Position numbers and translations under genes: made by a program
Shown here: piece after piece, positions 8,899-8,982 of the stretch
How the letters are laid out: the number at the start of each line of letters is the position of its first letter
Numbering within the stretch: position 1 is the stretch's first letter
Notes under the pieces: model-generated
What the model saw: only the letters and a program-made list of their open reading frames with translations
Told to the model about the DNA's origin: nothing
Database searches by the model: none
Origin: Eledone cirrhosa
Taxonomy: Eukaryota
NCBI GenBank assembly: GCA_964016885.1
Contig: CAXHJY010000903.1
Span: forward strand, 4,735 to 68,734
Direction of reading: 5' to 3'
Length of the DNA stretch: 64,000 nt

Positions 8899-8982
8899 GT
8901 CTCCTGATGAGTTCCAAGCCTCATGGATAAGTCCAAGATCGGGTATATCCAAACATGGAACGAAACCACCGGTGGTCGGGAC
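8899..8982 (+). ncRNA. Type I hammerhead ribozyme, canonical core
   Basis: GTCTC(8899-8903)-CTGATGA-GTTCCA...TGGAAC(8956-8961)-GAAA-CCACCGGTGG-TC-GGGAC(8978-8982). All conserved core residues present; stem III is the perfect palindrome ACCACCGGTGGT. Confidence 0.9.

What the first reader, a model, noticed from the sequence alone, without database searches (positions are those of the whole stretch)
8899..8982. Canonical hammerhead with 12-nt palindromic stem III and extended stem II
Seen: perfect core, 5-bp stem I, 6-bp stem II extended by a second helix (TGGATA/TATCCA) beyond an internal loop, and stem III ACCACCGGTGGT, longer than in the other motifs here. It lies just 5' of a probable RTE fragment on the opposite strand, and its element faces a second hammerhead-bearing remnant tail-to-tail across a TA run (~9285). 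Inference: the best candidate active ribozyme in the window, able to fold as a monomer hairpin or a 12-bp dimer. It may belong to an undescribed PLE or retrozyme-like family.
Basis: partly seen in the sequence, partly recalled or inferred. Interest (0 to 1): 0.7.

Follow-up and report, generated by a model that had tools for sequence, protein, structure and literature searches.

The report
Pseudoknotted hammerhead in Penelope-type retrozyme
This is a real hammerhead self-cutting RNA motif inside an old, truncated copy of a roughly 700-base non-coding jumping repeat that was likely pasted in by Penelope-type retrotransposons; its relatives show an extra, predicted knot-like pairing that this copy has partly lost, so it is probably not the family's best cutter, and cutting itself is untested.

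Summary
The motif at 8899-8982 is as described: a type I hammerhead with a 12-nt palindromic stem III. It lies in a 5'-truncated copy (8776-9288) of a ~704-nt non-coding repeat, about 4.5% diverged from its nearest relatives. The family inserts into (TA)n as partial tandems and inverted two-armed structures; in 30 of 32 scorable cases only one arm carries a tail, the Penelope-like (PLE) signature. A sister family forms a ~30-kb array. So it is a non-LTR retrozyme, i.e. a non-autonomous PLE. Subfamilies show compensatory changes in stems II and III and in the core pair (U3-A8, U3.G8, C3-G8). 73 of 75 copies run across the cut site, so templates were circles or uncut RNA. Both flanking repeats are separate insertions. 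No RNA data were available and no autonomous partner was found. The scan has noted other retrozyme families with such ends in this genome, but no look-alike of this sequence.

The parts
8776..9288 (+). 5'-truncated copy of a ~704-nt non-coding repeat unit (unit positions u193-u706); non-autonomous PLE-type retrozyme
   Evidence: homology boundaries in 30 loci; only copy in the window
8792..8847 (+). promoter-like block: CCAAT at 8792-8796 and CTTAGCCATTTT at 8836-8847 (YY1-like; label recalled, function untested). The most conserved 17-mer of the family lies just upstream of the truncation and is missing here
   Evidence: GCCATTTT kept in 52 of 59 and CCAATCA in 31 of 59 relatives under 75% identity
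8882..8888 (+). strand predicted to pair with 8979-8985 and compete with stem I
   Evidence: minimum-energy fold of 8880-8995, 10 kcal/mol below the active fold, pseudoknot not modelled
8893..8898 (+). 5' strand of the predicted pseudoknot; private G8893 and T8896 break 2 of 6 pairs
8899..8903 (+). stem I, 5' strand (pairs with 8978-8982)
8904..8910 (+). core C3-U4-G5-A6-N7-G8-A9
8911..8961 (+). three-segment stem II: 8911-8916/8956-8961, 8924-8929/8946-8951, 8931-8934/8941-8944
8918..8923 (+). 3' strand of the predicted pseudoknot, in the stem II internal loop
8962..8977 (+). G12-A13-A14, palindromic stem III 8965-8976, C17 at 8977; predicted cut between 8977 and 8978
8978..8982 (+). stem I, 3' strand
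9281..9292 (.). (TA)n run: the element's fixed 3' end merges with the insertion target
8258..8777 (-). neighbour, not part of the element: ~520-nt non-coding SINE-like repeat bounded by microsatellites (RTE-like motif recalled, untested)
9293..9466 (-). neighbour, not part of the element: old ~175-nt repeat with a minimal hammerhead (core at 9388-9382) whose stem II is broken in this copy

Best explanation
The motif is the type I hammerhead of a ~704-nt protein-free repeat (a non-LTR retrozyme) that was likely copied into TA microsatellites by a Penelope-like element's enzymes, and this window holds one old, truncated copy whose ribozyme is predicted to be weakened. Shown: the unit, its (TA)n targets, partial tandems, inverted arms, the tail on one arm only, compensatory changes, and copies that cross the cut site. 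Inferred mechanism: (1) a source locus with two or more units is transcribed, possibly from the conserved promoter-like block upstream of the ribozyme; (2) each hammerhead folds with stems I and II docked by a Watson-Crick pseudoknot between the 6 nt before stem I and the stem II internal loop, with stem III as a hairpin or optionally a 12-bp inter-repeat duplex, and cuts after GUC/GUA; (3) unit-length RNA is ligated into a circle by a host ligase; (4) a PLE endonuclease cuts both strands in (TA)n and its RT starts at two fixed internal TA-rich sites about 130 nt apart (u706 and u133, less often u112), runs through the ligated junction and drops off at a roughly even rate, which gives truncated, partial-tandem and two-armed copies.
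For: Family: best 40 scored hits at 86-100% identity from 3736 first-look candidates; 196, 150 and 43 exact matches for three ribozyme-region patterns and 2157 for a 17-mer shared with sister families, each with 0 control matches. The unit closes on itself with no ORF between repeats. Ends: of 53 two-armed insertions, 32 had both outer ends at defined TA sites and 30 of these pair u706 with u133/u112 (binomial p 2.5e-7). [quoted passage not shown] A sister family forms a two-armed array of ~660-nt units whose ends lie ~30 kb apart; 29 forward units were seen in the stretches fetched. Selection: on 145 copies, 239 cells change on both sides against 77.7 +/- 7.2 shuffled (0/500); core pair C-G 57, U-A 54, U.G 27, other 7; five different perfect 12-nt palindromes follow one another along a tree built on non-ribozyme sequence, with wobble intermediates. 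Pseudoknot: 121 of 145 copies pair 5-6 of 6 (random 6-mers 4.3%); sister families swap both strands (GAGGT/GCCTC, GAGCT/AGCTC, GAGTT/AACTC); cognate score 4.90 against 4.41 +/- 0.04 shuffled, maximum 4.51 of 500. Stem I-II pseudoknots are known to be needed for fast cleavage (PMC3088659). Template: 73 of 75 arms extend 5' across the scissile bond, with smoothly spread 5' ends.
Against: No cleavage, transcript or circle was observed. Two of the five covariation measures do not beat the shuffles (pairs with a two-sided change 10 vs 11.9; extra pair types 45 vs 47.3), and copies are related, so the counts reflect perhaps a dozen independent events. Within the family the pseudoknot varies mostly at wobble level. 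27 of 145 copies belong to an amplified subfamily with U3.G8, probably a poorer core, so full activity may not be needed to spread; HHR mutants did not affect PLE insertion in vitro (PMC11167929), and 8 of 9 Xenopus retrozyme dimers did not cleave (bioRxiv 10.64898/2026.07.22.740005). No arm of the narrow family reaches two units (longest 1226 nt), so an uncut linear precursor fits as well as a circle. No autonomous PLE sharing the unit was found in 69 GIY-YIG stretches (30 loci, plus 39 longer stretches that partly repeat them).
Confidence: 0.72

Rival explanations
1. Same non-autonomous PLE parasite, but the template is the uncut multimeric or partial-tandem transcript; the hammerhead is functional but has a side role (trimming read-through RNA, turnover, late processing) and no circle is involved.
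For: Only 2 of 75 arms start at the cut site; no arm reaches two units; the U3.G8 subfamily amplified; unprocessed RNA was the dominant substrate for the anole PLE (PMC11167929).
Against: An efficient, selected cis-acting ribozyme would leave little uncut RNA, yet nearly all copies cross the site; circles are shown for coral, mussel and axolotl retrozymes (PMC7229834). An even drop-off rate explains the lack of long arms on a circle too.
Confidence: 0.2
2. The unit is the pseudo-LTR of an autonomous PLE and these copies are merely its 5'-truncated ends.
For: Same insertion anatomy as PLEs; retrozymes are reported as related to pLTRs (bioRxiv 10.64898/2026.07.22.740005); two sister copies lie next to PLE ORFs (L163, L189).
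Against: In tandem copies the unit end runs straight into the unit start with no ORF. The two copies near ORFs are set off by TA runs, and the L189 ORF occurs without the unit in L184, L169 and L006.
Confidence: 0.06
3. A satellite or DNA-level repeat with a chance or dead hammerhead-like motif.
For: Weak Rfam score; folding z near 0; the sister array shows higher-order repeats typical of DNA-level amplification.
Against: Fixed 3' ends with scattered 5' ends and inversions mark retrotransposition. The core is kept in families at 60-65% identity, with compensatory changes.
Confidence: 0.02

Closest known systems
Metazoan non-LTR retrozymes (Cervera and de la Pena 2020, PMC7229834, parts 1-4 of 6 read; Li, Clavereau and Pollet 2026, bioRxiv 10.64898/2026.07.22.740005, parts 1-3 of 5 read)
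   Same: Non-coding, low-GC repeat unit with one type I hammerhead per unit; monomers, dimers and (in a sister family) long arrays; co-occurs with PLEs.
   Different: Unit of 660-704 nt, against 170-400 nt in the 2020 paper but within the 51-972 nt range of the 2026 preprint. Stem II spans 51 nt in three segments, with a predicted Watson-Crick pseudoknot instead of the usual loop 1-loop 2 contacts. Stem III palindrome is 8-12 nt. It carries a conserved promoter-like block, whereas a review says retrozymes seem to lack promoters (PMC7761336, passages; plant NbRZ1 is an exception per search-listing abstracts). Expression and circles are not shown here.
Endonuclease-bearing Penelope-like elements and their non-autonomous derivatives (Craig et al. 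2021, PMC8557442, passages; Frangieh et al. 2024, PMC11167929, parts 1-2 of 4; Cervera and de la Pena 2014, PMC4209133, parts 1-2 of 4)
   Same: 5' truncation, partial tandems, inverted 5' copy, tail at one end only, (TA)n target, palindromic helix III.
   Different: No ORF. The tail is about 110-130 nt rather than 30-40. The hammerhead is large and has a full helix III, unlike minimal PLE hammerheads. No sequence link to an autonomous family was found.
Pseudoknotted hammerheads and natural U3-A8 core variants (Perreault et al. 2011, PMC3088659, passages)
   Same: Stem I-stem II docking by a pseudoknot (about 40% of their representatives, all three types); C3-G8 to U3-A8 covariation; palindromic stem III in repeat-type hammerheads.
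   Different: Here the partner is an internal loop of a long stem II in an animal retroelement, and both core states plus the wobble intermediate occur in successive subfamilies of one lineage. Their figures and supplements were not seen, so the same geometry may be drawn there.

Membership tests
Type I hammerhead ribozyme | Conserved core and three helices, helix I open | tested here: met
Type I hammerhead ribozyme | Covariation of helices and of the 3-8 core pair among homologues | tested here: met
   two of five summary measures not above shuffle
Type I hammerhead ribozyme | Stem I-stem II tertiary contact | tested here: inconclusive
   pseudoknot supported in the family and its sisters, but only 4 of 6 pairs in this copy
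Type I hammerhead ribozyme | Rfam Hammerhead_1 gathering score | tested here: not met
   18.9 bits against 34; no hammerhead hit at E 0.5 in six related loci; the 45-position model has no room for the long stem II
Type I hammerhead ribozyme | Self-cleavage after NUH | not testable with these tools
   no RNA run listed
Non-LTR retrozyme | Non-coding unit with one type I hammerhead per unit | tested here: met
Non-LTR retrozyme | Tandem copies with at least two hammerheads | tested here: met
   family: L032, L033, L124, L259; sister arrays; not met by the window copy itself
Non-LTR retrozyme | No LTR, PBS or PPT; low GC | tested here: inconclusive
   no LTR-type layout in the mapped copies and no tRNA gene nearby; PBS and PPT were not searched; GC 0.38 for the 2-kb bin only
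Non-LTR retrozyme | Expressed as linear and circular unit-length RNA | not testable with these tools
Non-autonomous Penelope-like element | Partial tandems, 5' truncation, inverted 5' arm | tested here: met
Non-autonomous Penelope-like element | Optional tail at one end only; fixed internal 3' ends | tested here: met
   30 of 32 scorable two-armed insertions; 21 of 53 not scorable
Non-autonomous Penelope-like element | Microsatellite (TA)n target | tested here: met
Non-autonomous Penelope-like element | Sequence shared with the pLTR or 3' end of an autonomous PLE | tested here: inconclusive
   none in the GIY-YIG stretches examined, a small part of 10596 candidates
Part of an RTE element | Hammerhead element and RTE-like neighbour travel together | tested here: not met
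   homology stops at 8776; each occurs without the other

The most novel reading that the evidence does not exclude
A superfamily of ~700-nt animal retrozymes that carry their own internal Pol II promoter and a switchable hammerhead: the leader-stem II pseudoknot turns cleavage on during transcription, an upstream strand captures stem I and keeps the circle uncut, and the master lineage walked through a weakened U3.G8 core while still spreading. This would give a natural series for testing how much ribozyme activity, and whether circles, PLE-driven mobilisation needs.
Probability: 0.2. Interest if true: 0.62.

Novelty: new member of a known kind. Interest (0 to 1): 0.37.

Why it matters
The class is known, and the scan has met other such families in this genome. 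The value is in the detail. The ends give sequence-level support for the still indirect idea that PLE enzymes mobilise retrozymes. The family preserves a step-by-step natural record of compensatory change in a hammerhead core and palindrome, usable as a ready panel for kinetics. It also shows a long-stem-II, pseudoknotted hammerhead that Rfam misses at its threshold, so such elements are probably undercounted.

Tried and rejected
(1) An apparent pile-up of 5' ends at the cut site (11 arms at u395-402) was a BLAST artefact from a diverged subfamily; reading the junctions and remapping with a profile left 2 of 75. (2) A cluster of 5' ends at u250-268 as a transcription-start mark: not distinct in the pattern-selected sample. 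(3) Link to the RTE-like neighbour: rejected. (4) Link to the minimal-hammerhead neighbour: a separate repeat. (5) L163 and L189 as autonomous partners: independent insertions. (6) The C5 cluster as a source array: segmental duplication. (7) Expression: no RNA holder listed, which is no evidence either way. (9) Rooting the subfamily tree failed: the sister rows fell out among 16 of 169 dropped rows, so the direction of core change is unknown. (10) The competing helix 8882-8888/8979-8985 is conserved in the family but shows little covariation and was not evident by eye in sister families; kept only as a prediction. (11) Lunse et al. 2017 on PLE hammerhead dimers could not be read; only its title was seen. 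(12) PMC10886601 passages were irrelevant, and one literature search returned mostly shark ecology.

Full report
Observation. None of 60 block-shuffled windows gave a motif of equal descriptor score. Rfam finds the same span only below threshold (18.9 bits; nothing at gathering). Single raw reads from two other DNA samples match the ribozyme at 99% or more, and an exact contig spans the left junction.

The element. The window lies in a ~3-Gb animal genome rich in microsatellites. Searching with 8790-9290 gave 3736 first-look candidates, of which 40 were scored, at 86-100% identity. Homology runs from 8776 to the TA run at 9288-9292. Other copies extend upstream through ~190 nt that lead back to the 3' end, so the unit is ~704 nt and closes on itself with no ORF in between. 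On the unit of locus L026 the window copy is u193-u706 and the cut falls after u397. It differs from the majority of its ten nearest relatives at 22 of 491 positions, so it is an old, single, truncated insertion. Exact pattern counts were 43, 196 and 150 for ribozyme-region patterns and 2157 for a 17-mer shared with sister families, with 0 in the reversed controls. Sister families at 60-70% identity keep the whole unit. One forms a two-armed array with ends ~30 kb apart, of which I fetched part. A 591-nt family with a similar ribozyme has near-identical tandem copies but no clear homology elsewhere in the unit.

Insertion anatomy. 3' ends fall at internal TATA-rich sites fused to (TA)n: u706, u133, and less often u112. 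Among 180 insertions (127 single-armed, 53 two-armed; the sample is partly biased by my queries), 32 two-armed ones had both outer ends at such sites. Thirty of the 32 had one arm at u706 and the other at u133 or u112; the exceptions were L119 and L266, and 21 could not be scored. Earlier scan notes on other families in this genome prompted this count. PLE insertions are described as 5'-truncated partial tandems with an inverted copy and a tail often at one end only (PMC8557442, passages). A purified PLE protein cut both strands of AT-rich DNA and started RT at two internal sites that define the tail (PMC11167929). PLE mobilisation of retrozymes is proposed in PMC7229834, PMC4209133 and the 2026 preprint. 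PLEs are abundant here (10596 GIY-YIG candidates, 150 scored), including a near-intact copy (L172), but no partner sharing the unit was found.

Template. A cut linear monomer primed at u706 could yield at most 309 nt and would stop at the cut site. In 70 loci picked by a pattern just 3' of the site (the first 30 listed plus 40 further loci not yet held, of 150 matches), 73 of 75 pattern-bearing arms extend across it and the 5' ends are smoothly spread. A first impression of a pile-up was an artefact. Templates were therefore intact at the scissile bond: ligated circles or uncut precursor. The longest arm is 1226 nt, which does not separate the two.

Selection on the ribozyme. A tree on 300 nt 3' of the ribozyme (153 of 169 rows, midpoint root, some weak nodes) gives a ladder of subfamilies. 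Along it stem III takes five perfect 12-nt palindromic forms with G.U intermediates, stem II swaps U-A for C-G and C-G for G-C, N7 and N17 vary as allowed, and the core pair goes U3-A8, U3.G8, C3-G8, direction unknown. On 145 aligned copies (148 candidates after removing segmental duplicates and deleted copies, 3 more left out for length or truncation) 89.8% of cells pair against 86.1 shuffled and 239 cells change on both sides against 77.7. The pair-count and pair-type measures do not exceed the shuffles (similar). In the first 100 of 196 genome-wide matches, my hand count was C-G 64, U.G 20, U-A 13, other 3, and C.A 0. U3-A8 is a known active variant (PMC3088659). Relatedness limits all these counts to about a dozen events.

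The pseudoknot. The six bases before stem I are complementary to the stem II internal loop. 76 of 145 copies pair 6 of 6 and 45 pair 5 of 6; random 6-mers reach 5 or more in 4.3%. At the outer pair, among in-register rows, C-G 31, U.G 42, U-A 25 and C.A 1. Sister families replace both strands, so that one position is G-C, C-G or U-A. Over 160 ribozymes the cognate leader-loop score is 4.90 against 4.41 +/- 0.04 when shuffled. Such pseudoknots are common in hammerheads and their loss slows cleavage 20- to over 100-fold (PMC3088659). The window copy has private G8893 and T8896 and keeps 4 of 6 pairs. It passes the core and stem tests, but 11 other copies are perfect throughout. Without the pseudoknot, the energy model prefers a fold in which 8882-8888 captures the 3' strand of stem I, by 10 kcal/mol.

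Monomer or dimer. The palindrome forms a weak hairpin (-1.6 kcal/mol) or a duplex (-23.5). The central pair, which would be loop in a hairpin, changes C-G to U-A in 38 of 145 copies via U.G, which favours duplex pairing at some stage. Against a requirement: an abundant subfamily has a 13-nt imperfect palindrome, several sister types have non-palindromic loops, and 103 of 160 stems are perfect palindromes. The window copy has no partner in cis.

Promoter-like block. u153-u272 is among the best conserved regions in distant relatives (0.68-0.79 identity per 30-nt bin against 0.6-0.65 overall; two bins near the 3' end reach 0.76), with GCCATTTT in 52 of 59 and CCAATCA in 31 of 59, but CACGTG in only 5. 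The motif labels are recalled and function is untested; it could equally be a protein-binding site on the RNA.

Neighbours. 8258-8777 is a self-contained ~520-nt repeat with microsatellite flanks at both ends and no convincing ORF. 9293-9466 is a ~175-nt old repeat with a minimal hammerhead, broken here. All three appear to share a TA-type target.

Novelty. The class is known. Seven library searches found no description of this family, but repeat databases and supplements were not checked. The scan's index has no look-alike of this sequence but many notes on other retrozymes and long-stem-II hammerheads in this genome. Verdict: new member of a known kind with an unusual, well-supported ribozyme architecture; interest 0.37.

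Noticed in passing
window 4306 (-): Another type I hammerhead with the U3-A8 core variant and a near-palindromic stem III.
   Followed up: no
window 45031 (+) and 44939 (-): Two nearby opposite-strand hammerhead remnants of a PLE family whose near-intact copy is L172 (pLTRs 97.8% identical, 938-aa open frame).
   Followed up: partly
window 45338 (-): Hammerhead of a further dispersed family with an 8-nt stem III, also seen in L092, L164 and L185.
   Followed up: no
window 34490 (-) and 34748 (+): Inverted pair of identical minimal-hammerhead-like motifs, a PLE-type two-armed remnant; the same motif lies near a GIY-YIG ORF in L142.
   Followed up: no
L183:5630-5960, L293-L312: Very young 591-nt retrozyme family (copies up to 100% identical, tandem and two-armed arrays) with a U3-A8 core, 10-nt palindrome and the same predicted pseudoknot; the best target for expression tests.
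   Followed up: partly
L363-L365 (G000:C1:92985600-93016030): Two-armed array of a ~660-nt sister unit with ends ~30 kb apart and higher-order repeat structure.
   Followed up: partly
window 8258-8777 (-): Very abundant ~520-nt SINE-like repeat; its 5' end was not checked for the truncated twister ribozyme reported for RTE elements (PMC7761336 passage).
   Followed up: partly
window 21037-21682, 21859-23367 and 32301-33016: Well-conserved tandem arrays with 90-, 44- and 143-nt periods.
   Followed up: no
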